Shown here in pieces: positions 1,749 through 58,697 of a DNA stretch of 64,000 nucleotides. The DNA lies in IMG/VR virus record IMGVR_UViG_2703718815_000003; one strand, 5' to 3'. Under the pieces are notes generated by a model. That model did not search any database. It was given only the letters and a program-made list of their open reading frames with translations, and was not told the DNA's origin. The position numbers and the translations under genes were made by a program. Source of the DNA: a virus (Duplodnaviria > Heunggongvirae > Uroviricota > Caudoviricetes). Each line of letters begins with the position of its first letter. The first letter of the stretch is position 1.

Positions 1749-2452
1749 CAGCGCACCTCACCATCTTTATGGCTGGAGTTAACTTCCGCCATTAAATGTC
1801 TGACGTAATCGACAAGAGAGCCACCTGGTGGAATCTGGCATTCCTCAACTAACTGGAAGTAGATATCCGCTGCATTACGTGTATTACTACCCTCGCATAT
1901 TCTTTCTTCCCGAAGTGCATGAAGCTCGCTGATCAAACGGTCACACTCTCCGTTACGCTGATCCACAACGGCCTCAAGCTCTGCGACGCGTTCACCTGGC
2001 GTCTTACCTTCTTTGCGTTGGATGGTAACGACGAAATCGCCAATTGCAGGGACGTTGTAATCCAGCTCAAGGTAGTTTTTGGCACCGCTGCGGACGAACT
2101 CACCCGCGAACATGGTGGCGAACATCGCAGAGGCCACTTCGCCGTTGAAAAGTGACTCCAGATCTAACGGAGTCCCGGCAGCAAGAGCCTCTTTTGCTGT
2201 ATCCATTGCATCCATGAACCGATCAAACTCACTAGCGCGCTTTTCCAGGTCTTTCCATTGCTCGCTCCAACGTTTGGCAACGAAGTCTATGAATGTTTTC
2301 GCGGATTCATCAAAATTCCCCTCAAACTTAACGATGCCTTTATCAATAATGATCTGGCCTACCGCATCCTCTGCATAACCTTTCAATGTAAACTTGAAAG
2401 GAAAATCAGAATGGCCTGTGACGTTAAAATGCTCTAACTGGAGGTTGTTCAT
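1748..2452 (-). CDS. hypothetical protein
   Basis: 234-aa ORF, start preceded by catgtgtttttc context shared by many genes in this window. Confidence 0.4.
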   Translation of the reverse strand: MNNLQLEHFNVTGHSDFPFKFTLKGYAEDAVGQIIIDKGIVKFEGNFDESAKTFIDFVAKRWSEQWKDLEKRASEFDRFMDAMDTAKEALAAGTPLDLESLFNGEVASAMFATMFAGEFVRSGAKNYLELDYNVPAIGDFVVTIQRKEGKTPGERVAELEAVVDQRNGECDRLISELHALREERICEGSNTRNAADIYFQLVEECQIPPGGSLVDYVRHLMAEVNSSHKDGEVR

Positions 2453-2513
2453 GTGTTTTTCTCTTATCGTTTAGTTACTACATTCTTACACAAATTAAGT
2501 AAGTATTTACCTA

Positions 2514-4199
2514 TCATTTAACGCATTTGAAAACGTATACGCTGACTGTGATCCCTGTGTCTTCAAACTCGTTGGTAAACGACTTCCCTCTGGCATAAAC
2601 GTAATTATCCATCGTCATCCAGTCCAGTATTGGCGCAGTGCCCGGCAATACTGCTACAAGACGCCCGCCGACTTTCAGATGCCCCAGCGCAGCCAGCGTG
2701 TGCTCTCTATGACGACCAAGCGAGTACGGCGGGTTCATAACGATTTTGTCGAACTGATAACCTGCGTTGTCCTCAGACCACTTTATGAAGTCGCAGCAAA
2801 TCGTGTTCGTATACCCTTTTCCAAGCAGGATATCAGCGAAGAGAGGTGCGATTTCTATGCAGGTAACATCTTCCAGATCGGCGTTAATATAGGCCAGAAG
2901 ATCCCCACGTCCGGCTTGAGGCTCCAGCAGCTTCTCACCAGGCTTCAATTCAGTGGCTCTGGCAACGTACTCAGCAATCAAGCGTGGGGTAGGGTAGAAC
3001 TGGTGTGATTTTGTATCCGGTATTAAACCGGTAGCCACAATCGTATTTAGCGTATGGCCGATGTCATACGGGAACTGCCAGTGCTTTTTCTCCTGCACGC
3101 CGCCAATGAAGCTCAGTGTGCGCTCAAGCTCTTCCACCTGCGACTTCTGGAGAGCTGAATCAGAGAAGTACCATACGCCTTTGTCTTTGCTCAATCGCCC
3201 GTCACGAAGCGCAGTGCGAACCGGCACGGAGATCGTCTTCTGGATTAACCCGAACTGCTTTGGTGCCCGTGTTTTTGGCGCAGTTCGGCATGGCGCGGGG
3301 ATTGCAGCAGGCATACTGTAAGCCAGCACCTCATTCAACTTCCAGGCCACGTCAGGATGTATTTCAAAGTGAACGTTGCCGTTCTTGAACATCTTCACGC
3401 GCATCAGATTTCCATCGACGTTCATCCAGTCACCGGTCTGGCAGTCGTTTGCTCGATACGCAGCTGATAGCACCTCAGCAGTGCGGTTGATGGTAATAAA
3501 TTCTTTGTGCGCGAAGAAATGAAGCAAGACACGCAGATCGTCGATGTAGTCCTCTTTGCGATAGTTCACGCTAACGCTGTCCCGCCAGAAATCAGAAATG
3601 CAGTCAGCGATTATCAGACGCTCGCTGAAACCGTTTGTCTTATTTGTCTTGTGCGCAGGACTCAGCGCCTTAAACAAGCCATACACGCGCTCAGAGAGAT
3701 ATTTGTGCCTGTCATTCAGCAAATTAAGCATCGTGGGTATGACCGTTTCTGCTTTGAACTCCGGTACACCAACGAACTCTTTAACCTTCATCTGGTAGCC
3801 GGTTCTGTCAGTTTTGATGACTTCCTGTTTGCCCTCTATAAACTGCTCGCGCCACTCATCTCGACGGGAAGCTGGCATGATCAGCAAAACGTTAGTCATG
3901 TCCGTGACCTTCCTCCAGTACTCGGCCCAAATATTCTGTTTCACCCATTCCAGATCGACTTTATCCAACCAACCTCGATTTAAACGCGAGCGATCTTCAT
4001 CTGGTCGATGGTTTAGTCTCAGCAGGCGATTAATCATGTTGTGGCGTTCGTCGCCATAAACGAAGTCGTGAACCTGATACATGAAGGCGATCTCTTTCTC
4101 GCACTCGGCCACAATTTCGTGGATGACGTTCATTTCCTGCCGATAGTCGATAGCAGTGTTTGAGTTGGCATCGTCGATGATGGAAAGGGCTGTATTCAT
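2514..4199 (-). CDS. DNA N6-adenine methyltransferase with large N-terminal domain of unknown function
   Basis: C-terminal ~190 aa carry FYPTP, LEPQAGRGDL (AdoMet-binding) and NPPY catalytic motifs; N-terminal ~370 aa unassigned. Confidence 0.6.
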   Translation of the reverse strand: MNTALSIIDDANSNTAIDYRQEMNVIHEIVAECEKEIAFMYQVHDFVYGDERHNMINRLLRLNHRPDEDRSRLNRGWLDKVDLEWVKQNIWAEYWRKVTDMTNVLLIMPASRRDEWREQFIEGKQEVIKTDRTGYQMKVKEFVGVPEFKAETVIPTMLNLLNDRHKYLSERVYGLFKALSPAHKTNKTNGFSERLIIADCISDFWRDSVSVNYRKEDYIDDLRVLLHFFAHKEFITINRTAEVLSAAYRANDCQTGDWMNVDGNLMRVKMFKNGNVHFEIHPDVAWKLNEVLAYSMPAAIPAPCRTAPKTRAPKQFGLIQKTISVPVRTALRDGRLSKDKGVWYFSDSALQKSQVEELERTLSFIGGVQEKKHWQFPYDIGHTLNTIVATGLIPDTKSHQFYPTPRLIAEYVARATELKPGEKLLEPQAGRGDLLAYINADLEDVTCIEIAPLFADILLGKGYTNTICCDFIKWSEDNAGYQFDKIVMNPPYSLGRHREHTLAALGHLKVGGRLVAVLPGTAPILDWMTMDNYVYARGKSFTNEFEDTGITVSVYVFKCVK

Positions 4200-4302
4200 A
4201 ATTGCACCATTAAGAAGTGATTTGTTTAATGGTGCAATTATTTCAAAAATGAAAAGGTACTAAATAGAAATAAACAGGCAATCCTTCAAATAAAGGCATT
4301 GG

Positions 4303-4974: not shown

Positions 4975-5201
4975 CTAACCGTATTTCCATTAATAGTAAC
5001 ATTTGGAACAGGTAAATTGATGTAGTTGTCGTTGTTAAGAGGCATTAATGACCACACGGCATGTAGTGATTTACCCGGTGGCGGATTAGAGTACGTCTTA
5101 GAGCCTGATGACGCCGTAAATCGATCAAGAAAAAAAATAGGTGTAAGGAAGCCAGTAACGTTAATTCCTTTATTGTTGTAAATCCCTGTACCGTATGACA
5201 T
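4920..5201 (-). CDS. hypothetical protein (AT-rich)
   Basis: 93-aa ORF; GGGTGA-like RBS upstream of ATG at 5201. Confidence 0.3.
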   Translation of the reverse strand: MSYGTGIYNNKGINVTGFLTPIFFLDRFTASSGSKTYSNPPPGKSLHAVWSLMPLNNDNYINLPVPNVTINGNTVSWSNLYTGLGSYIYTYWG

Positions 5202-8073: not shown

Positions 8074-8658
8074 ATAAACTCCTGAATCAAGCGCCGCGCC
8101 GATTTTTTTTCCTCGCGCGTGCGCACACGCGTGCGTGTTAATAATTATTAAAATAAACAAATTACTTCCCAGAACAGGTTTTTATAAACCTGAACTGAAC
8201 GAACGAAGTGAGTGAAGTTCACCTCGAACGAAGTGAGAGGTTGTCTTTTCAGGTAATACTCTCCCAGGGAGGTGAGTATAAAAATCCCTCACCAACCTGG
8301 TCGTTTCATAACCTGAAAAGTTATGGTCTAAGTCTACTGCCAGCTTAGACTTGGGAAGTTATGGATGACAGCACCCCAGAACCGAGATCTTCCCACACTT
8401 TATGAAGGGGAGTACTGGATTCAACCTCTCGAAACACCCCAGACTCGACAATCATAAAGTGACCCTTGTCTCCGCTCACTTTGGTTCCCCCTTCCCCGAC
8501 ACCTAAACGGCACCAGTTCTACGCTGGTAGTGAGCTTTTTTAAACCTGACGCCAGTGACGCTTACCCCCACCCATCAGGTCGAGTCTCCAGTCTACGACT
8601 GGAAACTATCAGATCTTAGCACTTACAATTCACTTTATGAATAGTTTGTACTTATCTA

Positions 8659-8913
8659 TCATTGTGATTGATTATTTTCTCTACCATGTAGTTGAACATT
8701 CAAGGCAAACACCTCATTGATCAACTCACCTAAAAGCTGTTCAACAAGTTCGCGATGCTCGCCAAGATGCAAGCACTTAATTGCCCATTCGTACAAGTTG
8801 AAAGCCTGCTCACGATCTTTCATCATTTCACGAGCCTGGGCCAGAAAATCGCTCTCTACGAGCGCAACGACATTAGTCGGGTATGACATGTTGGTTTCCT
8901 TAAAGTGGTTCAT
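8659..8913 (-). CDS. hypothetical protein
   Basis: 84-aa ORF. Confidence 0.35.
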   Translation of the reverse strand: MNHFKETNMSYPTNVVALVESDFLAQAREMMKDREQAFNLYEWAIKCLHLGEHRELVEQLLGELINEVFALNVQLHGRENNQSQ

Positions 8914-8994
8914 AAAATCGATTTTAAAGCGTCTGGGAAGGGGTTCTAGTGGATTCTGTAGTGATGTTCAGGTCTGGAGTCTCTGATACAAAAC

Positions 8995-9052
8995 AGCCTG
9001 CTTCCGTATATTAATAATTAATATGTAGTTATTTATATATACAGAAGCAGGC
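8995..9052. repeat. 57-bp palindromic element, copy 1 (cctgcttccgtatat / AT-rich spacer / atatacagaagcagg)
   Basis: 15-bp inverted repeat with one mismatch; near-identical element at 54318..54372. Confidence 0.6.
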
Positions 9053-9074
9053 TAATTACAGACGCCAGAACAAA

Positions 9075-9668
9075 CTAAGCAGCCTTCTTTGATGGTCTTT
9101 TTTTCCTGATCACATTCGCAGGATCATACCCTCCCAGACTTTTCATGACGTCCAAAGGGATCTTGCTTATAGAGTGCCCAGCGTCCTGACAGAATCCTCG
9201 AAAAACAACGAGCATACTGCCACCTGGGTTGATGTTTACTTCTACCTGACCCAGATTGACGTCAGGCTCGACAAACGCTACGCGGCCACCAGACAGAATA
9301 ATCGTCTCATTCGCACACTCTGTTGCACGCTCATACCACTTTGTATCTAGGGATTGAGGAATTAGCATCACTGTTGTAACTCCGCGAGCCTGCTCACGTA
9401 TAGCCGCATCAATCCAGGGGGAGATTTTGGAGTAGGGTGGATTGAGGAAGGCAATTGTACCTGGCTGTCCCCATTCAGATTTCAAAGCATCACGCTCAAC
9501 GCCTATGAAATTAGGCAGCTTTGCATTGTCCTTGTTGCAGGCAACGTCAACATCAAATGTCACTCCAAGATAACGTTGAATGGCAGAAAACAGCCAGTCA
9601 GGTGTTCTCCAGAGGTCACGAAGAGAGTTGTCGCGCTTTCGCTGTTTGATTTTTTCGGCTGCAATCAT
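9075..9668 (-). CDS. DNA N6-adenine methyltransferase, small phage type
   Basis: 197-aa ORF with NPPY catalytic tetrapeptide (AFLNPPYSK) in a small single-domain protein. Confidence 0.65.
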   Translation of the reverse strand: MIAAEKIKQRKRDNSLRDLWRTPDWLFSAIQRYLGVTFDVDVACNKDNAKLPNFIGVERDALKSEWGQPGTIAFLNPPYSKISPWIDAAIREQARGVTTVMLIPQSLDTKWYERATECANETIILSGGRVAFVEPDVNLGQVEVNINPGGSMLVVFRGFCQDAGHSISKIPLDVMKSLGGYDPANVIRKKRPSKKAA

Positions 9669-9733
9669 CTTCTTTCTCGATAGGTAAGTAAATACCTATT
9701 TTTGCATTTGATTTTATGTCTGGCAATCAAATA

Positions 9734-9778
9734 AAACGCGCCAGAAATGCAAACGAGAAGCTCTCTGGCGCGTTTTTG
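9734..9778. terminator. long hairpin with T-runs on both strands (candidate bidirectional terminator)
   Basis: aaacgcgccaga ... tctggcgcgttt 12-bp stem followed by TTTTT; second hairpin at about 9779..9812. Confidence 0.5.
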
Positions 9779-9851
9779 TGGTGCTGGGTATGTGATTGGC
9801 TTACCCAGCACTATAAAGCTCTCTATGGGCTTTATTTTCAGTAGGGGAACG

Positions 9852-10661
9852 TCATCCAATAGTGTACTCCGCGACAAACTTCTTAACGATCGGTGATTCT
9901 TCGTTCAATGTTAGATTTCCACCGTCTCTAACGGCAATTCCTGTCGCTGGAAATACAGCCATCATTTGCCCAGCCTGAGTTGACGCAGTGTTAAGCGGAT
10001 ACGGTTTTTCTGGATTGCTCATTAAAGCAATCTTAATACTATTACTTGTAGCCTTCTTTTCTGTGAGAAGGTGTCTCATGGAAATTACCGTGTAAACACT
10101 AATATCTGGACCTCCGCTAAACCAATTAAGAAGGTTTAATATCTTATCCTTTGCTTTGACAGGCGCGTTATCGTAAGCGTCTAAAAAAATATCTTTCTCT
10201 AAACCCGCTTTATTGAAAAACGCATCATCTTTATCACTTAGAGCAAAACGAGGACCTCTTGCAGTACGCGCTTTTTTATTTGTGTTGCTATCATTTGACT
10301 GTTGAACTTTTAATTCATCATTAATCTCAACACACCCTTCAACCTCGATGATCCCCAACTGTTCTGGTTCGTTTTCGGCAGCTTCACCACTTTCAGCGTT
10401 AATTACGTTTATAGGCTCATGCGCTAACTCCAACTCATTTAAAGCTGAGCTGAAATCACCTGCTTTTTCTTCATTGAACAGTTCTTCGGCAACATCATCA
10501 GAACTCATGGCTACGCCAGCATCTAGGCCGAGCAGCAGATCGTCAATATCATCAGTATTTTCAACCTGTGCAGCTTTTTTTACTGGTTCATCAAGTGATT
10601 GCAACATGGCTGCCAGCTCGTCCAGATCATCATTTGTCATTACATTTTCAACCGAACTCAT
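9852..10661 (-). CDS. acidic hypothetical protein
   Basis: 269-aa ORF, D/E-rich N-terminal half. Confidence 0.4.
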   Translation of the reverse strand: MSSVENVMTNDDLDELAAMLQSLDEPVKKAAQVENTDDIDDLLLGLDAGVAMSSDDVAEELFNEEKAGDFSSALNELELAHEPINVINAESGEAAENEPEQLGIIEVEGCVEINDELKVQQSNDSNTNKKARTARGPRFALSDKDDAFFNKAGLEKDIFLDAYDNAPVKAKDKILNLLNWFSGGPDISVYTVISMRHLLTEKKATSNSIKIALMSNPEKPYPLNTASTQAGQMMAVFPATGIAVRDGGNLTLNEESPIVKKFVAEYTIG

Positions 10662-10819
10662 GTAAGTCTCCTTCTGTTTGGTTACATTTGCGTTTCGATG
10701 GCTACATTTTGACTAAACCTATCAGGCGGAAAAGTATTAAATACAGGCAGGAAATGATTGAAAGGCGACTGTTCTTTAAAAGAAAGCCTACTTTAAACTT
10801 TTTAAAGTAGGCTTTTGTT

Positions 10820-11377
10820 TTACACAATTTCAGAGGGTAATTTAAAAAATCCGTACTTATTACGTGCCTTAAAGAAGCATTGCATCATTAAGTTTGTGTC
10901 ATATAAGGCACTATGTGCTTTGGCATGATCGTATATAAAGCCAAGAGAGAAGGCCAACTCTTCAAGGCGGGGACGTTTACCGTCTTCTGTGGCCCACAAT
11001 CCCGATAACATAGTATCTATAACAGGAACTTCTGGCAGTCTTACTCCATACCCTGAAAACTCGTGTCGAATAAATGGTATATCAAATGCTTCGCCGTTAT
11101 GAGCAACCCACACACTACATGCCCCCATATAAGCGCCAATTTCGCTGGCATGATTTGACAACAAAGGTTCAGCTGCGAGCTGTTCCAATGAAATGCCATG
11201 AACGGCTTGAGCTTTCGGATCTATGTTTCTGCGAGGGTTAAAACGCATCTCCAGACTATCAATATGTCTCTGTGTCTCCAGTTCATAGCGGGTAATTGCG
11301 ATTTCAATAATTTTATGACCAGCAAGGAAATCCAGTCCCGTAGACTCGATATCGATGCCTGCAACAATCGTTGTCAT
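10820..11377 (-). CDS. DnaQ-like DEDDh 3'-5' exonuclease
   Basis: GIDIESTGL (Exo I), HNGEAFDIPF (Exo II), HSALYDT (Exo III) motifs. Confidence 0.7.
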   Translation of the reverse strand: MTTIVAGIDIESTGLDFLAGHKIIEIAITRYELETQRHIDSLEMRFNPRRNIDPKAQAVHGISLEQLAAEPLLSNHASEIGAYMGACSVWVAHNGEAFDIPFIRHEFSGYGVRLPEVPVIDTMLSGLWATEDGKRPRLEELAFSLGFIYDHAKAHSALYDTNLMMQCFFKARNKYGFFKLPSEIV

Positions 11378-11386
11378 CAGAACTCC

Positions 11387-11806
11387 TTACAACTTCTTAG
11401 CGCCCTTAAGTAGTGCGCTACGTACAAATTGAGCCGCTTTTTTCAAAGTTTCTTCACTGGTTTCACAGACAATCGGATCTTTCCACTTACCTGACACAGT
11501 GTTGAGAATATTGATTTGGTTGCTATCCAGACAAACAGAGATATAAAGCACCGTGCCACCAGCCAGCATCAAATGCATAGGAAACAGAGGCTTTTTACTG
11601 CCTTCACTGAACTGAGACATGGCGATGTTAATGGCTTCACCCACTTGTGTACCAACAAGCCCCTGCGCAGTTTCGAATATGGCACGAATAGCCAGACGAG
11701 CCTCTCGATCGCTCATAAGCGACCGGGAATGTTCGTCCGCTACACGAATCAAAGCCTCTGTTGTTTTCCGATCCAGTTCATCTTCAAGCAACATTTCACT
11801 AAACAT
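11387..11806 (-). CDS. hypothetical protein
   Basis: 139-aa ORF. Confidence 0.4.
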   Translation of the reverse strand: MFSEMLLEDELDRKTTEALIRVADEHSRSLMSDREARLAIRAIFETAQGLVGTQVGEAINIAMSQFSEGSKKPLFPMHLMLAGGTVLYISVCLDSNQINILNTVSGKWKDPIVCETSEETLKKAAQFVRSALLKGAKKL

Positions 11807-11867
11807 TTTTTATCCTTAACCCATTTTGAGAGTTTTATTGTCGCAATGTCGAAGAGGCGAACAATTT

Positions 11868-12512
11868 CTAATGAACGGTCACTCGGCCACAGAACCGGTT
11901 TTCTATCTTTTCTACAGCGTTATCTAGCATTCTCATCACTGATCTGGCTCTTGCTTCAACCGTGCGATATCGGTTGGAAACGACGAAGGTTTGCAGATCT
12001 CCCCTTTGCGGATGCAGGTGAATTTTTGTCAGTTCCCCGCACATCAACGCATCAATACGAGCGACATACAGACGGTCTAATGATGCTCGTTGTGATCGCA
12101 AGTAATCTCGCTCTGAGAGAGCGACTCCCGGGCGTAAGCCAGCAATGGCGTTAAAGTTTGAAATAGCAGTTTTGTGGCAAAACTTTTCGATATCGAGGGC
12201 TAACTCAATACACCGATCTTCATTTGTATGGCCGACCAAATCCAACGTGTAGGCCATAACATCAGCAGGTGTGCGATCGATAACAAAGCCTTCAACACCA
12301 CGCGTAAGTAGCTCTATATGCTTTGCTATTTCCATTTGAATCTGAAGCCGCTCATATAGAGGCATAGAATCACCTACTCGAACACCGAGGCGGCTCATCA
12401 AACTTCCGACACCAGCATCCACGTAAGGGATTCCGTAATGTTTGTCGATATATTTAGCCAGGGTTGTTTTCCCACTGCCCTGAGCACCAGTGATCCCAAT
12501 CCGGTAATCCAT
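11868..12512 (-). CDS. P-loop nucleotide/nucleoside kinase-like protein
   Basis: Walker A GITGAQGSGKTT at N-terminus, small size typical of dNMP/nucleoside kinases. Confidence 0.5.
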   Translation of the reverse strand: MDYRIGITGAQGSGKTTLAKYIDKHYGIPYVDAGVGSLMSRLGVRVGDSMPLYERLQIQMEIAKHIELLTRGVEGFVIDRTPADVMAYTLDLVGHTNEDRCIELALDIEKFCHKTAISNFNAIAGLRPGVALSERDYLRSQRASLDRLYVARIDALMCGELTKIHLHPQRGDLQTFVVSNRYRTVEARARSVMRMLDNAVEKIENRFCGRVTVH

Positions 12513-12988
12513 TACGACCTTCTGTATACGATCTGCGAAAAGCCAGGCTCTTCCTCGCTGGCTCGTTGGGTATAAGCTGTTTCAACAGGCACAAAGCCTA
12601 AATTACGCATCATGCTTGCCGGGAAGAATGCATCGGCGTTTGGCACATCAACGCCGATGTGGGAGAGCCAAATCTCTTCAACATGCGGCATGAATAGCGA
12701 GTAAATTTGTTCCCCGCCAATCACCCACACAGGCTCTGGTAATCGCAACACATCATCCACACCAGCAGGGTAGAATCCATTTGGTACAAAGCCATGAGAG
12801 CGCGTCAAAACGAGGTTATGACGCTCTGGAAGAGGGCGTTTGAGACTTTCCATCGTTTTACGCCCCATAACGACAGTGGCGTTTTTGGTGAGTCTCTTAA
12901 ATAGCTTCAGATCGGTAGAACAACGCCAGGGGAGTTCATTCGCTATGCCGATCTCATAGTTACGGCCAACAGCAGCGATCATCTTCAT
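12512..12988 (-). CDS. folA: dihydrofolate reductase
   Basis: MIAAVGRNYEIG...LPW...VVMGRKT...PLPER...VIGGEQIY aligns with bacterial DHFR. Confidence 0.8.
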   Translation of the reverse strand: MKMIAAVGRNYEIGIANELPWRCSTDLKLFKRLTKNATVVMGRKTMESLKRPLPERHNLVLTRSHGFVPNGFYPAGVDDVLRLPEPVWVIGGEQIYSLFMPHVEEIWLSHIGVDVPNADAFFPASMMRNLGFVPVETAYTQRASEEEPGFSQIVYRRS

Positions 12989-52083: not shown

Positions 52084-53424
52084 TTAGGTAACGTCTAAGA
52101 TTCGCTCAATGAAGCGCATTTGTTCGAGGTTTTGTTTAACGCGAATGCTGATCCCTCCCTGCTGGTTACGCGAACCAGCAAAGTAGAGACGAGCCTCTCC
52201 TTTCGCTTCTTCTTCTTCGGTTTTGTTGATCGTTATTACCAGGTCAGCAATACGTACTTTTTCGATGTTGTCGGCAGCGTGCATCATTGTGGCAACTTCT
52301 GACGCGCCACCTTCACGGTTTGTTTGCGATGCTGTGATACCAGCAACGTTGTGTTTGTCATAAAGAGCACGTAAATCGGTGTAGATACTACGAATGTTGG
52401 CGCGATCATCACGAAGGTCATAACTGGCACGCATCAAATCTGCGTAGTCGACAACAAGCATGTCAGGCACCATGCCATTGGCTTTCATGCTGTTAAGCAT
52501 ACGGTCCAGATCTGCCGGTGACATACTTCCTGACGGACGCTCAACAACCCACAAACTACCAATCCCCTTAGTGGCTCCCAACTCTGCCAACTTACGATGA
52601 ACTTCATCGCGCCGTTCCACCAGCTTGGACATTTCCGTCTCCGACAATCTTGCATCAAAGCGGTCGGACAAAATGTTGGTGTGAACCTCCAGCGAGAGAT
52701 ACAGAACATTGTAGCCAGCAAGCGTTGCGTTTATGGAAAACTCACCCATTGCGGTCGATTTACCGGATTTAGCGAACCCCATGAAAAGCACCATTTCGCG
52801 CTTTGCCCAGCCTTTTTGGTACAGCAACCTATCGAGAAGAGGGAGTCCTGTTGTAATACTGTTTGGTACATACTCCTCTGAAGCCTCATATTCACGCGCT
52901 TTCAATCGCTCACTTGCGGAGGTGTAGTAGTCATAGATTCCGGTCGCTTCGTTCGATCCAATCTGCTGAACCTTGGCCATGATTGCCATCGCCCCCTGAA
53001 AGTCGCCTTTCTCTTTCAGTTCAGCAGCCTTAATCAGAGCATCATCAAACGCTACGCTTTTTGCGAAGGTTGATACCTGGTCAACCATGTACGAGGTATC
53101 GGACAATTTTTCTGCAAGGATGCGCTTAAACGCAGCAACAACATCGGCGAATAGTTCCTCACGGATAGTCTTATCGCGTTTCGCACGCTTAAGCATATCC
53201 AGAATTGCAGATGAAGAGGGCGCGCTCTTGTACATACGGTAATAGCCCGAAACCATATTAACCAATATGGCATTGGCCGCATTGGCAAATTGGCTAGGCA
53301 CAACCAGATCTCCCGCACGAGTAAGAAACTCGTGATCACGACAAAAATATGCCGTCAGTCTGTTCTGGAAATCTTCATCAAACTCTTCGGACAGCCCGCG
53401 TCCTGTATGGCAAAGTTCGGTCAT
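52084..53424 (-). CDS. replicative DNA helicase, DnaB family
   Basis: Walker A GFAKSGKST in C-terminal RecA-like domain, N-terminal helical domain; adjacent to primase. Confidence 0.7.
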   Translation of the reverse strand: MTELCHTGRGLSEEFDEDFQNRLTAYFCRDHEFLTRAGDLVVPSQFANAANAILVNMVSGYYRMYKSAPSSSAILDMLKRAKRDKTIREELFADVVAAFKRILAEKLSDTSYMVDQVSTFAKSVAFDDALIKAAELKEKGDFQGAMAIMAKVQQIGSNEATGIYDYYTSASERLKAREYEASEEYVPNSITTGLPLLDRLLYQKGWAKREMVLFMGFAKSGKSTAMGEFSINATLAGYNVLYLSLEVHTNILSDRFDARLSETEMSKLVERRDEVHRKLAELGATKGIGSLWVVERPSGSMSPADLDRMLNSMKANGMVPDMLVVDYADLMRASYDLRDDRANIRSIYTDLRALYDKHNVAGITASQTNREGGASEVATMMHAADNIEKVRIADLVITINKTEEEEAKGEARLYFAGSRNQQGGISIRVKQNLEQMRFIERILDVT

Positions 53425-53467
53425 GTGCTTTCCTTTGTTTTTTAAACAAATTGTTTTCTAGTATTAG

Positions 53468-54217
53468 TTAATTAGATAGGGGATCAATAAACCGCCGTGC
53501 TTCTTCCAGTTCTTCTGGAAAGTGGGCGGAAATAAGGCGCTCTGGAACGATTTCCATTAGCCAGATAGCGGAGAAAATTGCGCGTATGCGCTTGCTGCGG
53601 GGGATGGTGCGTAAACGCTCCAGAATCCACTCAAAATAGCTTTCCTGGATCGGGTTGAACTGCATGTCTCCTATATGCTTAAAGCTAACCAGAGAGTCAT
53701 CCAGACGGGTTGTTGCGCGTCTGGCTAATTTCTCTTCAAATATCTCAATCAGTTCTGGCTGCCACAAATGCTGTGGGCGAGGCAGCTTGTCCCACAGACG
53801 TCGTGCAGCTGCGGAAAGAACGGTGGAGATAAAGTAGTCGTATGAGCAGCAATAGCGGTCAGCAAACTGGCGTGCTTTCCATAGCGACGTTTTATTGGCA
53901 GTCGACAACTCCTGATAAGGCAGGCGTTTTAACCCGGTGGTGAACGGAGCTGTTTCAAAGTGTTCGCGACCGTGCGTCAGCATGATATTTGAGTACTGAC
54001 GTTTGTATGCCTCCGTAAACAGACAGGTGGCCATAAGAGGATGCATGTCGCGGTAATCAAACCACTTCGTATCGAAGAGTTCAGCCTCGTCTTTGCAGCG
54101 CGACAAACCAATGTTTTCAGCAACCCACTTATCCATAACAGCGGTATTCCACTCTGTCATGAAGTCGTACTGGTCGTTGTCGATGGTGTCGAAAAAGATT
54201 TGGCTCATGTGGCTCAC
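53468..54217 (-). CDS. hypothetical protein (position suggests helicase-associated function)
   Basis: 249-aa ORF immediately upstream of the helicase gene. Confidence 0.35.
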   Translation of the reverse strand: MSHMSQIFFDTIDNDQYDFMTEWNTAVMDKWVAENIGLSRCKDEAELFDTKWFDYRDMHPLMATCLFTEAYKRQYSNIMLTHGREHFETAPFTTGLKRLPYQELSTANKTSLWKARQFADRYCCSYDYFISTVLSAAARRLWDKLPRPQHLWQPELIEIFEEKLARRATTRLDDSLVSFKHIGDMQFNPIQESYFEWILERLRTIPRSKRIRAIFSAIWLMEIVPERLISAHFPEELEEARRFIDPLSN

Positions 54218-54317
54218 CTGGTAGGTAGTTACTTACTTATCACAATGAGCTGATGATAGCGATTGGTGGCAGTTTTTGGAAGTGGAAACGGAAGGGAGTT
54301 GTTCTGGTGGGTATCTT

Positions 54318-54372
54318 TTGAAAGACCTGCTTCCGTATATTTAATAAGTTACTTATTATTTATATACAGAAA
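54318..54372. repeat. 57-bp palindromic element, copy 2
   Basis: cctgcttccgtatat ... atatacagaaacagg; near-identical to 8995..9052. Confidence 0.6.
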
Positions 54373-54386
54373 CAGGTCATGAATAC

Positions 54387-56090
54387 TTAATTATTAAGCA
54401 ATCTGCTCACACGTAGTTTGTTAAGACTTGATCTAGAGGCCAGTTTCGTTAATGCACCTATTGCTTTATTCGTGATTTTTTGCTGTTCTTCTGTTAGTTC
54501 TTGCATACTTTTGAATCTGAGCAACCCCTTTCTCACTAAATCCAAAGCATCCTGATTGCGGGATAATATCCACTTTAAATAATCATCTTCAGAGAAACTG
54601 TTAAGATATGCTATGTCACTATGATTAAATTTGCCTTCAATTATTTTGTATAAAACATTCTCTAAATTAGTCTCTTCAGGCTTCTTATTCATCAATTTTT
54701 TTTGAATTAGCAGACCTAACTTTTCGTTACCAAATATCTCTACATACAAATTCCGAAAAGCAGTATAAGCATCATCTTGGCTAACAAAGGCATCTGCATA
54801 TGCCTCTATATAACTATCACAATCAATCTCCAATCTATTTAAGATATCAATCAAGCCTATGAAGTGAGCAACAGGTATGTGTGAAAGATTGTCGTTAATT
54901 ACACATTTTATCTTAGAAATAAACTCAGATTCATTGTCCTTGAATGAGTCACTAAAAATATCCCAAACATTGTTAACCTCACATAAAGCCTTGTGTTCTT
55001 TATATTGTTTATTTTTTTCTTCTATTATACCTCGAATATTGCTTTCAGTAGAAAGATAACCATTCTTGAGATAAAAATCTATGTCATCATCGAAAGCAAT
55101 TTCCGCTCGTTCATAAATAATATCAAGACTATTAATAAATGAATATACAGAATCATCCTTTTTATCATCTAACATGTAATCAAATACATGTATGTTTTTA
55201 ATTGATTCTTTAAACAAGGCATAATCAACACCTGGAACACCAGAATAGTAAACCACTGAAAACAGAACCAATCTATTGATAAAACTTTCTCTAACCTTAT
55301 CCTCTGCCAAGCTTAGCTCATTCCTAAGATTAACCAGAGATGTTTTTATTTTATTTAATATACGGATATTTTTAATGCCTAAGTCATTTGCTAAGACTTT
55401 TAACAAAAGAAAATCAGAATCAGTTTCATAAAAAACTTTACGTAAGTTCTTCTCAGGCGTAGGATCGTATTTTATTTCGACATCAATTACTTTTTCTCTG
55501 TACTCTAAAAACTGTTTTTTTGCAGTTTCATCATGTAAATTATCTTCATTTAAAATTAGAACAACTTTGCAGCCTTTTCTTCTTGCCAATTCATCAATTA
55601 CCCCCATAATTTCTTTAACTTCTAGCGAATTACCTTTTCTTTCAACATCATCAATACAAACCAAATAATTATTAACAAATTTATACTCAAGAGATGACAG
55701 CAGGTTATCTGTTTTGAACCCAAAAAAATCGTTCTTTCCGAAATGTATTAAAAATTTTGACAAGGAGTTGTATTTCAACCATCCCAAAAACCCATTTCTA
55801 TAACGAATCATAGTTCGATCCGTTTCAGATAAAATTAGTTCTTTATATTTCTTTTCATTAATTGGTGTGGCACAATGATAAAGAGCTTTTTTAATATCAC
55901 CAATAGAGTTAACCCCAAACAAAGAAACATACGAATATGCATTAAAATCTAATCCTTCAGAATGCTTAGTATAAAAACTATTCCAATAATGAGTTTTACC
56001 AACGCCCCAATCTCCTTTTATGACGGCAACCCGATGATCTGAAACTAGAAAATTTTTTAGAAATGATTCTATCGATTCCATTAGTATCAA
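54387..56090 (-). CDS. KAP-family P-loop NTPase
   Basis: KAP-type Walker A GDWGVGKT and Walker B-like LVCIDDVER; gene markedly more AT-rich than neighbours. Confidence 0.6.
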   Translation of the reverse strand: MILMESIESFLKNFLVSDHRVAVIKGDWGVGKTHYWNSFYTKHSEGLDFNAYSYVSLFGVNSIGDIKKALYHCATPINEKKYKELILSETDRTMIRYRNGFLGWLKYNSLSKFLIHFGKNDFFGFKTDNLLSSLEYKFVNNYLVCIDDVERKGNSLEVKEIMGVIDELARRKGCKVVLILNEDNLHDETAKKQFLEYREKVIDVEIKYDPTPEKNLRKVFYETDSDFLLLKVLANDLGIKNIRILNKIKTSLVNLRNELSLAEDKVRESFINRLVLFSVVYYSGVPGVDYALFKESIKNIHVFDYMLDDKKDDSVYSFINSLDIIYERAEIAFDDDIDFYLKNGYLSTESNIRGIIEEKNKQYKEHKALCEVNNVWDIFSDSFKDNESEFISKIKCVINDNLSHIPVAHFIGLIDILNRLEIDCDSYIEAYADAFVSQDDAYTAFRNLYVEIFGNEKLGLLIQKKLMNKKPEETNLENVLYKIIEGKFNHSDIAYLNSFSEDDYLKWILSRNQDALDLVRKGLLRFKSMQELTEEQQKITNKAIGALTKLASRSSLNKLRVSRLLNN

Positions 56091-56102
56091 TCCTTTAATT
56101 CA

Positions 56103-56129
56103 TATATTGGGCGTAACAAACGCCCAATA
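56103..56129. repeat. hairpin/palindrome between parG-like gene and KAP NTPase gene
   Basis: atattgggcg-taacaaa-cgcccaatat 10-bp inverted repeat. Confidence 0.5.
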
Positions 56130-56132
56130 TAA

Positions 56133-56492
56133 TCAACCTTTCTTCATCAACTCTCGTTTAATTTCATCGGTACGCATCGTAACGTCGGCAGCTGTGATCG
56201 CCTCGTTAAGCTTCACGATGTCCTCGATTTCCTGCGGTGACTTCTCTGCCAGATGGAAAATGGCTGCTCGAATCACGTCAGAACGAGTGAACTTCTCGAA
56301 GCGAGGGATGAACTTCATCATCTCCAGCAGTTCGAAGTATTCGTCCTCCAGTGACATTGTGCGGCTTTTAATTTTCTCTTTGCCACGAGTCGGGCGTCCC
56401 TGTGGTCTGACTGGTTGGCGCAAAGGAGTTGTGTTCTTAGCCGGTGCATCAGGCTCTTTGCGCTTTGCTAGGTCACCCATTTTCATGGACAT
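56133..56492 (-). CDS. ParG/ParB-like small partition protein (RHH-type, tentative)
   Basis: 119 aa; basic disordered N-terminus, C-terminal strand-helix-helix-like segment; start overlaps parA stop. Confidence 0.45.
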   Translation of the reverse strand: MSMKMGDLAKRKEPDAPAKNTTPLRQPVRPQGRPTRGKEKIKSRTMSLEDEYFELLEMMKFIPRFEKFTRSDVIRAAIFHLAEKSPQEIEDIVKLNEAITAADVTMRTDEIKRELMKKG

Positions 56493-57160
56493 TATTCTTC
56501 TTCCTCCAGACTCAACAGATAATCTACAAATTCTTCAAACTCGGCTTCCGCCTTTTTGTCGCGCTCGCTACCGGTCATTTCAAAGATAGAACGACCAGAC
56601 TCTTCCGCATCATCATAGACGTTGCGGTTATATAGATTGACTGGCGCAGACTCGATTCCAAACGTCTCAACAATCTCTTTAGCCGCCAGAATGCGAGACA
56701 CTTGTGATGGCAAAGCCGGGCACTGGTTCATGACCGCGCGGACCTTCACTTTATCGTTTACATTGCGAACATTGTCGATAATAGGATCGATGTCACGTAA
56801 AGATTTCAAATCACGACGCTTAGGACGCAGCGGGATAATGATAACGTCAGCCATCAGCATCGCTTGTCGCTGAATTTCGGAGTCGAAGCCACCAGCATCT
56901 ACCACTACAAACTCAGCTCTACCCTGAAGCGATTTTAGGTGCTTAATGATGTCATCCTGAACGTATGCAAAAGGAATCAGCTCAAGGTCTTCGTTCTGTC
57001 GACGGTCTTCACACCAGCTCGTTGTCGTGCGCTGAATATCTATATCGGTAATATAAACCTTCTTCTTCTTTTTGACTTTCAGGCAAACGGCAATTTGCTG
57101 GGCAACGGTGGATTTGCCAGGCCCGCCCTTTGTGCCGCCAACCACAAAGATCTTGGTCAT
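56492..57160 (-). CDS. parA: ParA-family partition ATPase (small type Ib)
   Basis: deviant Walker A VVGGTKGGPGKST, Walker B FVVVDAGG. Confidence 0.8.
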   Translation of the reverse strand: MTKIFVVGGTKGGPGKSTVAQQIAVCLKVKKKKKVYITDIDIQRTTTSWCEDRRQNEDLELIPFAYVQDDIIKHLKSLQGRAEFVVVDAGGFDSEIQRQAMLMADVIIIPLRPKRRDLKSLRDIDPIIDNVRNVNDKVKVRAVMNQCPALPSQVSRILAAKEIVETFGIESAPVNLYNRNVYDDAEESGRSIFEMTGSERDKKAEAEFEEFVDYLLSLEEEE

Positions 57161-57478
57161 TGGAGAGTTCCCTTTGCGTATATAATTATCGTCTGAAACA
57201 ACTTGTTTTCTTATATGTGATATAGCCTAAATGCCTACGGCTGCGGTGTAAAGGTTAAATGGTAGGTTGTGATTAACAATTGGCAATCATAGCTTGTATT
57301 TGTCTGTTGAAAAAAGTAACAATGACCTCTATATTACAAGTACGGTGATATGCCGTACACAATTTGATAATGCACACGTAATGGGCTATAGCCTTTTAAA
57401 GTAATTTTTGAGTCGAAAACTCAGTTTGAACAGAGGAGATTGATGGCCTTCCTACATCACGGCCATCAGGAGGAATAC

Positions 57479-57748
57479 ATGTCAGCACTAAAAAAGCAGC
57501 GCATCGATTTGAGATTAACCGATGACGATAAAAGCATCATCGAGGAAGCTGCCGCAATGTCTAACCAGAGCATTACTCAGTTTATGGTTAGCAGTGCATC
57601 TGAACGTGCCGTGAAAGTTATAGAGCAACACCGTAGACTAGTTCTGAATGAAGAATCCTGGAATCTGGTTATGGACGCTATAAGCAATCCTCCGGCACCG
57701 AACGACAAGCTGAAACGAGCTGCTGATCGTCTGAAAAGCATGGAGTAG
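57479..57748 (+). CDS. TacA-like RHH antitoxin
   Basis: 89 aa from internal ATG 57479 with AGGAGG RBS; MSALKKQRIDLRLTDDDKSIIEEAA... matches GNAT-associated antitoxins. Confidence 0.65.
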   Translation: MSALKKQRIDLRLTDDDKSIIEEAAAMSNQSITQFMVSSASERAVKVIEQHRRLVLNEESWNLVMDAISNPPAPNDKLKRAADRLKSME

Positions 57749-57755
57749 TTTACTC

Positions 57756-58277
57756 GTGAGCAATACAACGATAGAGATTTTCTCTGGAGAGAAAGATTAT
57801 GATCTAAACGGTTTTGATTGCGGCGAAGAGTCACTAAACGCCTTTTTAGCCAACCACTTAAAAAGGCAGCATGAGGGAAAAATTCTTCGTGCTTATGTGC
57901 TTTGCACTCAAGAAGAAAGGCCAAAAGTGTTAGGATATTACACTTTGTCAGGTAGTTGTTTTGAAAAGGAGTCCTTACCTTCAAGAAGCAAACAAAAGAA
58001 GGTTCCTTATCGGAATGTTCCAAGTGTTACTTTGGGTAGGCTGGCTTTGGACAAGTCCCTTCAAGGTCAAGGATTTGGCTCAATGCTTGTAACACATGCA
58101 ATGCGCGTTGTGTACAATGCATCTCTTGCTGTAGGCATTCATGGACTTTTCGTTGAGGCGTTAAATGACAAAGCCAAGGCGTTTTATAAAAGTTTAGGCT
58201 TTATCCAGCTGGTTGGTAACAACGAGCGTTCTTTGTTCTATCCTACAAAATCTATCGAAAAATTGTTCGAAGAATAA
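57756..58277 (+). CDS. GNAT-family acetyltransferase toxin (TacT-like)
   Basis: 173 aa, GTG start 8 nt after antitoxin stop; acetyl-CoA motif QGQGFGSMLV. Confidence 0.7.
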   Translation: MSNTTIEIFSGEKDYDLNGFDCGEESLNAFLANHLKRQHEGKILRAYVLCTQEERPKVLGYYTLSGSCFEKESLPSRSKQKKVPYRNVPSVTLGRLALDKSLQGQGFGSMLVTHAMRVVYNASLAVGIHGLFVEALNDKAKAFYKSLGFIQLVGNNERSLFYPTKSIEKLFEE

Positions 58278-58445
58278 TGTGTTCCCCTCATTTGAGGGGA
58301 ACTTCGACATCACCAACCACAAACCCTCTCTCCCATCGTATTGTGAAAAAGGATTTGGCGTTCGGTTTCTTCAGTCATTACATCATTATTGCTGATATAG
58401 ATAGGCTCAGCCCCATCGCAGAACAACACGCTGGCTGTTTGTGGT

Positions 58446-58697
58446 TTAATGACGCACCCACTTATCATACAACTCACGATGAACGGCAGAAGCATCTTTC
58501 TGACGTATTTTACTGCTCGTCTCATTCACCACTTTCACTGTGTTTTGAAGTCGTTTTCTGTCTTCCTGTTTTGCCTTCTCTTCCATTGCTCGTCGCGCCG
58601 CATTCCCGCCCATCGTGTAAGCGCCGACAAGAACGAAAAGAACGGCAGCCAGCGTAATCAAAGCAACTTTTAGCTTTGTCATCAGGCTGCCTAGCAT
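58446..58697 (-). CDS. small membrane protein with coiled-coil (spanin- or holin-associated candidate)
   Basis: 83 aa, N-terminal TM helix then charged helix. Confidence 0.3.
   Translation of the reverse strand: MLGSLMTKLKVALITLAAVLFVLVGAYTMGGNAARRAMEEKAKQEDRKRLQNTVKVVNETSSKIRQKDASAVHRELYDKWVRH

What the first reader, a model, noticed from the sequence alone, without database searches (positions are those of the whole stretch)
54220..56130. AT-rich KAP-type P-loop NTPase gene bracketed by palindromes: candidate defence or exclusion gene
The 567-aa ORF carries the KAP-type Walker A (GDWGVGKT) and a matching Walker B (LVCIDDVER) and is much more AT-rich than the flanking replication and partition genes, suggesting recent acquisition. 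It is flanked by a 10-bp hairpin on the parG side and the 57-bp palindromic element on the other. KAP NTPases recur in defence contexts, and this solo gene sits in the plasmid-maintenance part of the element.
Basis: partly seen in the sequence, partly recalled or inferred. Interest (0 to 1): 0.7.

Follow-up and report, generated by a model that had tools for sequence, protein, structure and literature searches.

The report
Candidate defence NTPase in phage-plasmid hotspot
An AT-rich, single-gene KAP-like ATPase sits as swappable cargo at the end of the partition operon of an SSU5-like phage-plasmid of E. coli/Shigella; it is most likely an untested anti-phage defence gene of a kind shown to work in 2026, so it is a sound candidate rather than a new kind of system.

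Summary
A 564-aa ORF (54387..56081, minus strand; 567 aa from an upstream TTG) carries GDWGVGKT and LVCIDDVER. It has 30.6% GC against 46% for the window, and lies between a 12-bp hairpin and a ~55-nt palindrome.

The window is an SSU5-like phage-plasmid. The gene is the only cargo of a variable slot between the stop codon of the parG-like gene and a backbone-conserved, terminator-like palindrome. Other relatives carry DUF2971 (PADLOC PDC-S31) genes there, or nothing.

The protein is a soluble KAP-like NTPase. It passes the Pfam threshold marginally and has no transmembrane insert. A 300-aa alpha-solenoid follows the NTPase domain, with no recognisable effector. It belongs to a large family of uniform length that is always found solo and nearly always on mobile elements. 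Two homologues lie in the P2 GpA–GpQ defence hotspot, one beside PD-T4-10 and one beside PDC-S31.

Best explanation: a single-gene, NTP-dependent anti-phage or anti-MGE protein expressed in the plasmid state. This function is inferred, not tested.

The palindromes are not cassette ends, and low GC is a family trait rather than evidence of recent arrival.

Novelty: new member of a known kind. Interest is moderate.

The parts
54387..56081 (-). CDS of the 564-aa soluble KAP-like P-loop NTPase (an alternative TTG start at 56090 gives 567 aa). RBS-like AAAGGA lies 9 nt upstream of the ATG.
   Evidence: PHROG 4740 E 3e-164; Pfam KAP_NTPase 22.1 bits
55311..56081 (-). N-terminal NTPase domain, residues 1-257: an alpha/beta P-loop core with a non-hydrophobic helical insert at residues 76-133.
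55992..56015 (-). Walker A, GDWGVGKT (residues 23-30).
   Evidence: read in the sequence; invariant G23 W25 G26 G28 K29 T30
55638..55664 (-). Walker B, LVCIDDVER (residues 140-148).
   Evidence: read in the sequence; invariant C142 D144 D145 E147 R148
54390..55310 (-). C-terminal all-alpha (solenoid-like) domain, residues 258-564. It is the fastest-diverging part of the protein.
54381..56132 (.). Cargo cassette of about 1.75 kb: everything between the conserved backbone on the left and the parG-like stop codon on the right.
   Evidence: alignments with Cyrano, SSU5 and pMTY18780-3 and with the empty site in Salmonella plasmid AnCo3
56103..56131 (-). Perfect 12-bp GC-containing hairpin between the parG-like stop and the NTPase start. 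Every cargo variant has a different hairpin at this position. Probably an attenuator or RNA-stability element (inferred).
54324..54378 (-). The ~55-57 nt imperfect palindrome. It is a conserved backbone element, forms a strong RNA hairpin on the minus strand and is followed by UUUC/UUUU. Probably the intrinsic terminator of the par(+cargo) transcript (inferred).
56133..57160 (-). parA (56492-57160) and the 119-aa parG-like partner (56133-56492). This is the upstream operon from which the cargo is probably read.
   Evidence: No room for a separate promoter in the 51-nt gap, and no credible promoter hit.
53468..54217 (-). 249-aa conserved hypothetical gene, the first gene of the helicase/primase replication block and the downstream backbone neighbour.

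Best explanation
The gene is accessory cargo in a variable slot of an SSU5-like phage-plasmid. It most likely encodes a single-protein, NTP-dependent defence or exclusion factor that protects the lysogen, and so the plasmid prophage, from other phages or invading DNA.

Shown:
- It is a full-length, selectively maintained, soluble KAP-like NTPase with an intact catalytic set: Walker A Lys29, Walker B Asp144/Asp145/Glu147, and the conserved residues Asn178 and Arg240.
- A 300-aa alpha-solenoid follows the NTPase domain.
- It sits between the parG-like stop codon and a conserved terminator-like palindrome, in the same orientation as parA and the parG-like gene.

Inferred:
- It is transcribed by read-through from the par promoter, and is therefore expressed during plasmid-state lysogeny.
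- The variable C-terminal solenoid recognises a phage-derived protein or nucleic acid.
- Nucleotide binding and hydrolysis switch or oligomerise the protein, as in STAND/AAA+ relatives and in validated KAP defence proteins.
- Because no nuclease, protease, TIR, SIR2 or membrane domain is present, the output is probably one of two things: the NTPase activity itself (nucleotide drain), or NTP-driven binding or remodelling of a phage replication or packaging complex or of DNA.
For: Identity of the element:
- 99.1-99.9% nt identity to E. coli/Shigella SSU5-like phage-plasmids.

The slot is variable:
- Backbone conservation stops at ~54380 and resumes at 56133.
- An empty site has about 30 bp there.
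- In an evenly spaced sample of 30 plasmids the slot holds a single DUF2971 gene in about 21, KAP in 2, DUF2971 plus two other genes in 2, other hypothetical genes in 3, an IS100 in 1, and nothing in 1.
- DUF2971 cargo matches PADLOC PDC-S31 at E 3e-41 and 2e-33.

Family:
- Pfam KAP_NTPase is above the gathering score.
- All 76 aligned homologues hit PDC-S49, best E 4e-34.
- 2256 50%-identity cluster representatives match at E <= 1e-30, and the top 150 are all full-length at 530-604 aa.

Context of 10 homologues outside SSU5-like elements (all solo, 8 on recognisable mobile elements):
- P2-like prophage GpA-GpQ hotspot, directly beside PD-T4-10 A+B at E 4e-74 and 2e-168.
- The same hotspot beside a PDC-S31 protein.
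- Beside prophage S24 repressors, twice.
- Between portal and TerL of a prophage.
- ICEs, twice.
- A small integrative mobilisable element.
- GpA-GpQ is the main P2 defence hotspot according to PMC13586616.

Selection:
- dN/dS is 0.23 against the 76% allele: 0.13 in the N-terminal part and 0.26 in the C-terminal part.
- Divergence is confined to the cargo and graded toward the C-terminus.

Precedent:
- KAP NTPases fused to C-terminal regions of unknown function gave up to 6-log protection, dependent on Walker B and on the C-terminal region (PMC13552941).
- The single-gene KAP system 'Reve' from a P4 hotspot protects (PMC13586616).
- Tmn is a KAP defence NTPase.
- QatA is a KAP NTPase that binds DNA and forms 7-8-mers (PMC13279940).
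- Curing an SSU5-like plasmid of Klebsiella raised phage EOP 10-100-fold. That plasmid carries DUF2971 in the slot, not KAP.
Against: - No experiment exists for this protein or its close homologues.
- The PADLOC match covers mainly the NTPase domain (residues 3-223 against positions 8-214 of a 624-position model), and PDC-S49 is itself only a candidate.
- There are no hits to PifA, Tmn or QatA models for this protein.
- No effector domain is recognisable, so the output step is speculative.
- Transcription from the par promoter and termination at the palindrome are inferred from geometry only. The hairpin after the parG-like gene lacks a U-tract, and the simple terminator scan reported neither element.
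- Substitutions among near-identical alleles are not enriched in the C-terminal domain (p = 0.52).
- Some copies are frameshifted.
- 30% GC DNA in E. coli may be H-NS-silenced. This rests on my own knowledge and was not tested.
Confidence: 0.6

Rival explanations
1. The gene serves competition between mobile elements rather than defence against lytic phages. It would be a superinfection-exclusion or anti-plasmid factor that keeps related SSU5-like phage-plasmids, other plasmids or ICEs out of the cell.
For: - It is carried only on mobile elements, including inside the conjugation modules of ICEs.
- It sits next to the par and replication genes.
- Curing Kp1604 p2 also raised transformation efficiency.
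- PifA of F is a KAP protein known for exclusion.
Against: - The same family sits in P2 hotspots beside PD-T4-10, which acts on lytic phages.
- The validated KAP proteins were scored against lytic phages.
- The two roles are not mutually exclusive.
Confidence: 0.15
2. The gene is a passenger with no current phenotype: a selfish or decaying gene, possibly silenced, that hitch-hikes in a recombination-prone slot.
For: - It is present in only ~9% of Escherichia/Shigella and ~24% of Klebsiella backbone matches.
- Frameshifted copies exist (CP022461, CP109700, CP109716).
- One allele varies at the family-invariant N238.
- At 30% GC it is a likely target of xenogeneic silencing (my own knowledge).
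Against: - dN/dS is 0.13-0.26.
- Intact full-length ORFs are kept in four alleles down to 40% identity.
- The catalytic residues are invariant, and the family is very large with a uniform architecture.
Confidence: 0.12
3. The gene is a plasmid-maintenance accessory: an NTPase that assists partition, replication initiation or copy-number control of the phage-plasmid.
For: - It is located between the par and replication operons and is co-oriented with both.
- The best fold matches are the initiator-clade AAA+ proteins Cdc6/ORC, TnsC and MuB.
- QatA binds DNA.
Against: - It is absent from most SSU5-like elements, and the slot can be empty or hold unrelated DUF2971 genes.
- Homologues occur in integrated prophages and ICEs, which have no par or replication genes of this type.
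Confidence: 0.05
4. The gene is a counter-defence (anti-defence) factor that helps the phage-plasmid overcome host immunity.
For: Phage accessory slots mix defence and anti-defence genes, and SSU5-like elements of S. sonnei carry the anti-retron gene Rad.
Against: - At 564 aa it is large for an inhibitor.
- It has STAND/KAP sensor-like architecture.
- It is related to PADLOC defence candidates and to validated KAP defences.
Confidence: 0.05

Closest known systems
Single-gene KAP P-loop NTPase defences (EF_KAP and three metagenomic KAP proteins; PLoS Biol 2026, PMC13552941)
   Same: One polypeptide with an N-terminal KAP-type NTPase and a ~300-aa C-terminal region with no known domain. Carried on mobile elements. 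In those proteins, defence requires Walker B and the C-terminal region.
   Different: EF_KAP has transmembrane helices (one N-terminal, one inside the NTPase domain), whereas this protein has none. No sequence was available for a direct comparison. The hosts are Gram-positive or gut Firmicutes. This protein is untested.
PADLOC PDC-S49 (candidate single-gene defence, PADLOC-DB 2.0)
   Same: It is the only PADLOC family hit by all 76 homologues (best E 4e-34). It is also a single gene of similar size, with models of 619-629 positions.
   Different: The match is essentially limited to the NTPase third of the model (residues 3-223 against positions 8-214 of 624). The scores are far below self-family scores (77 bits against >500 bits within the family). 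It is therefore a sister family, not a member. PDC-S49 itself has no published validation in the searchable library.
[quoted passage not shown]
   Same: A solo KAP-domain gene in a phage or satellite defence hotspot of Enterobacteria, missed by DefenseFinder and PADLOC system calls, and shown to protect against several phage families.
   Different: It comes from P4, not from an SSU5-like element.
Tmn (transmembrane KAP/YobI-like NTPase) and PifA of plasmid F
   Same: KAP-type NTPases on plasmids that restrict phages. NTPase motifs are required for Tmn.
   Different: Tmn has two TM helices inserted after Walker A and acts at the membrane. The window protein is soluble and gives no hit to PADLOC tmn or PifA models at E <= 1. 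One distant homologue touches PifA at E 2e-4.
QatA of qatABCD
   Same: [quoted passage not shown] It binds ss/dsDNA and forms 7-8-mers, which gives a plausible biochemical model.
   Different: QatA works within a four-gene operon and is dispensable for part of the defence. The window gene is solo, and there is no PADLOC QatA hit.
STAND/Avs-type anti-phage NTPases
   Different: There is no N-terminal effector domain (only 16 residues precede strand 1). At 564 aa it is much shorter. The Pfam nSTAND3 hit is below threshold (16.3 against 27.2 bits).
P2 (GpA-GpQ) and P4 defence hotspots
   Same: A fixed intergenic slot in a temperate element in which unrelated small defence cargos are exchanged between near-identical backbones. 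The same two cargo families (this NTPase and DUF2971/PDC-S31) occur in P2 hotspots.
   Different: Here the slot is the 3' end of a plasmid partition operon of a phage-plasmid. I found no description of this slot in the searchable literature.

Membership tests
KAP family P-loop NTPase (Pfam PF07693; Aravind et al. 2004, cited from my own knowledge) | Pfam PF07693 profile match at or above the gathering score | tested here: met
   22.1 bits against a cut-off of 20, E 1e-4, residues 15-257 on profile positions 12-278 of 293. This is marginal. Most homologues carry a precomputed PF07693 hit.
KAP family P-loop NTPase (Pfam PF07693; Aravind et al. 2004, cited from my own knowledge) | Walker A of the form G-x-W-G-x-G-K-[ST] | tested here: met
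   GDWGVGKT at residues 23-30. G23 W25 G26 G28 K29 T30 are invariant in 76 homologues.
KAP family P-loop NTPase (Pfam PF07693; Aravind et al. 2004, cited from my own knowledge) | Walker B hhhhDD followed by a conserved acidic-Arg pair | tested here: met
   LVCIDDVER at residues 140-148. C142 D144 D145 E147 R148 are invariant.
KAP family P-loop NTPase (Pfam PF07693; Aravind et al. 2004, cited from my own knowledge) | Two or four transmembrane helices inserted into the NTPase domain between Walker A and Walker B (the hallmark of many prokaryotic members) | tested here: not met
   The highest 19-residue Kyte-Doolittle mean is 1.35, and it lies outside the insert. Only 3 of 76 homologues reach 1.6. 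The AF2 model shows a charged/amphipathic helical insert at residues 76-133 at the equivalent position.
KAP family P-loop NTPase (Pfam PF07693; Aravind et al. 2004, cited from my own knowledge) | NTP binding and hydrolysis | not testable with these tools
   Only the conservation of catalytic residues supports it.
PADLOC PDC-S49 (candidate defence) | Full-length match to a PDC-S49 HMM | tested here: not met
   The best model matches residues 3-223 to positions 8-214 of 624 (77.5 bits). The only long alignment (residues 4-374) scores 21.9 bits.
PADLOC PDC-S49 (candidate defence) | Single-gene system with no obligatory partner | tested here: met
   There is no conserved neighbour in the 10 non-SSU5 contexts examined, nor in the SSU5 slot.
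Tmn / PifA / QatA (named KAP defence proteins) | Match to the PADLOC HMM of the family | tested here: not met
   At E <= 1 the window protein hits only PDC-S49 models. One of the 76 homologues touches PifA at E 2.4e-4.
STAND NTPases (Avs-like) | NTPase plus helical sensor plus a separate effector domain, and a profile match to a STAND family | tested here: not met
Anti-phage defence gene (functional class) | Reduces phage infection when expressed; phenotype lost in catalytic mutants | not testable with these tools
   Only guilt by association and precedent from other KAP proteins.
Defence hotspot of a temperate element | A fixed position between conserved backbone genes, with alternative unrelated cargos, some of them known or candidate defences, and an empty-site variant | tested here: met
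   Boundaries at ~54380 and 56133. Cargo types KAP, DUF2971/PDC-S31, other hypotheticals and IS100. Empty site in AnCo3. None of the cargos is an experimentally validated system.

The most novel reading that the evidence does not exclude
SSU5-like phage-plasmids have a previously undescribed defence-cargo slot built into the 3' end of their partition operon, between the parG-like stop codon and the operon terminator. Swappable single-gene immunity factors would therefore be co-expressed with plasmid segregation functions.

The soluble, effector-less KAP-like family found there has more than 2000 clusters at 50% identity. It would be a new experimentally unvalidated class of one-protein defence whose output is the NTPase or oligomer itself.

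This would also supply a defence function to the S. sonnei/E. coli phage-plasmids, which DefenseFinder reports as defence-less. The assumption that these elements are the pWPMR2-like clade is inferred from host and abundance only.
Probability: 0.35. Interest if true: 0.55.

Novelty: new member of a known kind. Interest (0 to 1): 0.42.

Why it matters
If confirmed, three things would follow.

1. A large, uniform and completely uncharacterised protein family would gain a function. The family is annotated only as 'P-loop NTPase fold protein' and lives on prophages, ICEs and phage-plasmids.

2. A defence hotspot would be defined in SSU5-like phage-plasmids. These are common in clinical E. coli, Shigella sonnei, Salmonella and Klebsiella, and current tools see few or no defence systems in them.

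3. It would offer a compact model, with no membrane anchor and no recognisable effector, for how KAP/STAND-like NTPases stop phages.

It could matter in practice for phage therapy against Klebsiella and Shigella strains that carry these elements. It would not change the general picture, because single-gene KAP defences were demonstrated in 2026.

Tried and rejected
- **NCBIfam:** no hit.
- **Sequence search of PDB** with the full-length and C-terminal profiles: only noise, best E 0.036-0.75.
- **Foldseek against PDB:** only weak AAA+/STAND matches, E >= 2e-4, TM <= 0.28.
- **afdb50 library:** unavailable.
- **Rfam** on 53000-58500: nothing.
- **Promoter/terminator scan:** no more sites than in shuffles. 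The only promoter-like site near the start overlaps the start codon, and neither palindrome met the scan's criteria.
- **The two palindromes as matched cassette ends:** rejected. They share no sequence, the left one is backbone and present at the empty site, and the right one differs in every cargo type.
- **Transposon or integron insertion:** rejected. No recombinase, no direct repeats at the junctions, and exchange looks like homologous recombination in conserved flanks.
- **Link to the published defence phenotype of Kp1604 plasmid p2:** rejected for this gene. p2 carries DUF2971 in the slot, not KAP.
- **C-terminal enrichment of substitutions among near-identical alleles:** not significant.
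- **Literature searches:**
  - 'PDC-S49' returned nothing.
  - 'pWPMR2' returned only the surveillance preprint.
  - The sequence of 'Reve' could not be obtained.
Full report
**1. What is in the sequence**

The minus strand of 54387-56090 holds a 567-aa ORF counted from a TTG. RefSeq annotation of 99.8%-identical plasmids, and all close homologues, use the ATG at 56081. That gives 564 aa, WP_000443723, annotated as 'P-loop NTPase fold protein'.

GDWGVGKT (residues 23-30) and LVCIDDVER (residues 140-148) are present.

The ORF has 30.6% GC. The window as a whole has 45.6%. Every other 1695-nt window lies between 39.3% and about 52% (mean 46.0, sd 2.3). GC3 is 25%, against 46-57% in the neighbouring par, replication and lysis genes.

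A perfect 12-bp hairpin lies at 56103-56131, with no match in 100 shuffles. An imperfect ~55-nt palindrome lies at 54324-54378.

**2. What the element is**

The region is 99.1-99.9% identical to about 20 E. coli/Shigella plasmids of ~110 kb and to Escherichia phage CMS-2020a. Its flanks match phages Cyrano, PhiR41_1 and SSU5. The window is therefore an SSU5-like phage-plasmid.

The gene order on the minus strand is: parA, a 119-aa parG-like gene, the NTPase, a 249-aa conserved gene, a DnaB-like helicase, then a primase.

**3. The gene is the cargo of a variable slot**

I aligned the window with Cyrano, SSU5 and pMTY18780-3. Backbone conservation ends at about 54380 and resumes exactly at the parG-like stop codon at 56133.

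What other elements carry in the same place:
- Cyrano has a 267-aa DUF2971 protein.
- SSU5 has a DUF2971 protein plus two hypotheticals.
- pMTY18780-3 has two hypotheticals.
- Kp1604 p2 has DUF2971.
- Salmonella plasmid AnCo3 has nothing, with about 30 bp between the palindrome and the parG-like stop.

In an evenly spaced sample of 30 plasmids in which both flanks matched, cargo size implies the following: about 21 with a single DUF2971 gene, 2 with DUF2971 plus other genes, 2 with the NTPase, 3 with other hypotheticals, 1 with an IS100 insertion and 1 empty.

The DUF2971 proteins match PADLOC candidate PDC-S31 at E 3e-41 and 2e-33.

**4. The palindromes**

The 57-bp element is backbone. It is conserved in seven SSU5-like elements from Escherichia, Salmonella and Klebsiella, including the empty site. 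Transcribed on the minus strand, it forms a -28.7 kcal/mol hairpin (z = -7.0) followed by UUUC/UUUU. I infer that it is the intrinsic terminator of the par transcript. The slot would then lie inside the operon, upstream of its terminator.

The hairpin after the parG-like gene differs in sequence in every cargo type, including the Klebsiella allele. It lacks a clear U-tract in the window. It may attenuate read-through or stabilise the RNA.

The 51-nt gap leaves no room for a separate promoter, and the scan found none that is credible. Expression by read-through from the par promoter during plasmid-state lysogeny is the simplest reading. This is inferred.

The two palindromes are unrelated to each other and are not cassette ends.

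**5. The protein**

*Sequence families.*
- Pfam KAP_NTPase scores 22.1 bits against a cut-off of 20, over residues 15-257.
- PHROG 4740 (function unknown) matches end to end at E 3e-164.
- NCBIfam gives nothing.
- PADLOC gives only PDC-S49, at E 2e-22, essentially over the NTPase domain.
- All 76 aligned homologues hit PDC-S49, best E 4e-34. That makes PDC-S49 a sister family rather than the same family.

*Conserved residues.* The invariant residues are the Walker A set, Y51/S53/F55/G56, C142/D144/D145/E147/R148, G160, E196/K197, N238/R240 and R557. N178 is nearly invariant.

*Transmembrane segments.* None is present. The maximum 19-residue hydropathy is 1.35.

*Structure.*
- The AF2 model (pLDDT 89.6, pTM 0.75) shows an alpha/beta NTPase in residues 1-~257. 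It has a helical, non-hydrophobic insert at residues 76-133, where canonical KAP proteins carry TM helices. An all-alpha domain spans residues 258-564.
- Foldseek finds nothing close.

No nuclease, protease, TIR, SIR2 or pore-forming module is recognisable.

**6. Family size and distribution**

An exhaustive profile search found 9119 cluster representatives at E <= 1e-3 and 2256 at E <= 1e-30. The best 150 all align end to end and are 530-604 aa long. This is a large family with one architecture.

In plasmids, 138 records encode a homologue. Four alleles occupy the same slot of ~110-kb SSU5-like elements:
- 95-100% identity in 19 E. coli/Shigella records.
- 76% identity in 4 E. coli records.
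- 44% identity in Citrobacter and Salmonella.
- ~40% identity in Klebsiella (75 Klebsiella records carry a homologue; every sampled one is ~40% identical and lies on a plasmid of roughly 90-320 kb, most ~110 kb).

One 99% allele was seen on 928 contigs, named from Shigella sonnei.

**7. Composition is a family trait**

The Klebsiella allele has 31% GC in a 49% backbone. Homologues in Salmonella, Pseudomonas, Pantoea and others are 2-23 GC points below their flanks — only 2 points in the Thalassocella locus, whose flanks are themselves 42% GC, and 5-23 points in the other five. Low GC therefore marks membership of a mobile, AT-rich gene pool. It does not mark recent arrival in this lineage.

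**8. Selection and mosaicism**

Against the 76% allele, dN/dS is 0.23 overall, 0.13 in the N-terminal part and 0.26 in the C-terminal part.

The backbones are 96-100% identical. Within the gene, nucleotide identity falls from ~95-88% to ~70% toward the 3' half, then jumps back to 98% at 54297. dS is also higher in the C-terminal half. This points to recombination or domain replacement rather than positive selection alone.

Among near-identical alleles, substitutions are not enriched in the C-domain.

**9. Genomic context elsewhere**

I examined ten homologues outside SSU5-like elements. All are solo.
- Two lie in P2-like prophages between GpA and the portal GpQ. One is directly beside PD-T4-10 A+B (E 4e-74 and 2e-168). 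The other is beside a DUF2971/PDC-S31 protein. PMC13586616 states that GpA-GpQ is the main P2 defence hotspot.
- Two lie next to the S24 repressor of Pseudomonas prophages.
- One lies between portal and TerL of a Luteolibacter prophage.
- Two lie inside ICE conjugation modules.
- One lies in a small integrase-relaxase element.
- One lies beside a Phd/YefM-type pair.
- One lies in a variable region near an RHS toxin.

The two cargo families that alternate in the SSU5 slot therefore also co-occur in the best-known phage defence hotspot.

**10. Literature**

- KAP NTPases fused to C-terminal regions of unknown function protect E. faecalis by up to six logs. Protection requires Walker B and the C-terminal region (PMC13552941).
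- 'Reve', a single-gene KAP protein from a P4 hotspot, protects E. coli (PMC13586616).
- Tmn is a membrane KAP defence.
- QatA is a soluble KAP NTPase that binds DNA and forms 7-8-mers.
- Curing an SSU5-like Klebsiella plasmid raised phage EOP 10-100-fold and also raised transformation. That plasmid has DUF2971, not the NTPase, in the slot.
- A DefenseFinder survey found few systems in SSU5-like elements and none in the pWPMR2-like S. sonnei clade.
- I found no description of this slot.

**11. Verdict**

The most likely reading is a single-gene, NTP-dependent defence or exclusion protein carried as swappable cargo and expressed with the par operon. My confidence in the functional class is about 0.6.

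The sensing role of the C-terminal solenoid, and the output step (nucleotide drain, or NTP-driven binding or remodelling of a phage complex or of DNA), are inferred and could be wrong.

The rivals are inter-element exclusion only, an inert or decaying passenger, a maintenance accessory, and counter-defence.

The protein works like, and is distantly related to, KAP defence NTPases. It fails the transmembrane hallmark of canonical KAP proteins and is not a full-length member of PDC-S49. I file it as a new, untested member of a known kind, of moderate interest.

Noticed in passing
window 57440-58277 (+): A second variable slot lies between parA and the lysis cassette. Here it holds a TacA-like antitoxin (Pfam TacA1, E 9e-26) and a GNAT acetyltransferase toxin (TacT/KacT-like). 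Related plasmids carry 250-aa plus 127-aa hypotheticals, a 185-aa hypothetical, or nothing at this position.
   Followed up: partly
window 54300-55480 versus L013 (NZ_CP031136) 1501-3207: Mosaic allele. The backbones are 96-100% identical, but nucleotide identity within the NTPase gene decays from ~95% to ~70% toward the 3' half and snaps back to 98% at 54297. dS is also higher in the C-terminal half. This suggests recombinational replacement of the C-terminal domain.
   Followed up: partly
window 56103-56131; L002 ~3810-3840; L004 ~4170-4200; L012 ~4985-5005: Every cargo type has its own, different GC-rich hairpin immediately after the parG-like stop codon. The role (attenuator, RNA stabiliser or recombination scar) is unknown.
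   Followed up: partly
L001 (pSTEC409_1) 908-3025: In this otherwise 99.8%-identical plasmid an IS1A interrupts the DnaB-like helicase gene. That element may therefore be replication- or phage-defective.
   Followed up: no
L015/L016 (Yersinia enterocolitica) 10001-12590; L007 (Pantoea stewartii) 8108-11665: In P2-like prophages the NTPase homologue is adjacent to DUF2971/PDC-S31 in one case and to PD-T4-10 A+B in the other. So the P2 GpA-GpQ hotspot and the SSU5 slot draw on the same cargo pool.
   Followed up: yes
plasmid hits CP022461.1 (S. sonnei), CP109700.1 and CP109716.1 (Klebsiella): tblastn matches to the NTPase are split into 2-3 pieces, which suggests frameshifted or pseudogenised copies in some lineages. 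One near-identical allele also varies at the family-invariant N238.
   Followed up: no
window 56133-56492 (-): The 119-aa 'parG-like' protein has no Pfam hit at E <= 0.01. The Cyrano record annotates it as a RelE/ParE toxin. Its role as the centromere-binding partner of ParA is inferred from position only.
   Followed up: no
L020 2550-4151: In a small integrase-relaxase element that carries an NTPase homologue, an MtlR-like protein and a 300-aa unknown lie nearby. This recalls the 'mannitol repressor' component of the Aernus system described in PMC13586616. There were no PADLOC hits.
   Followed up: partly
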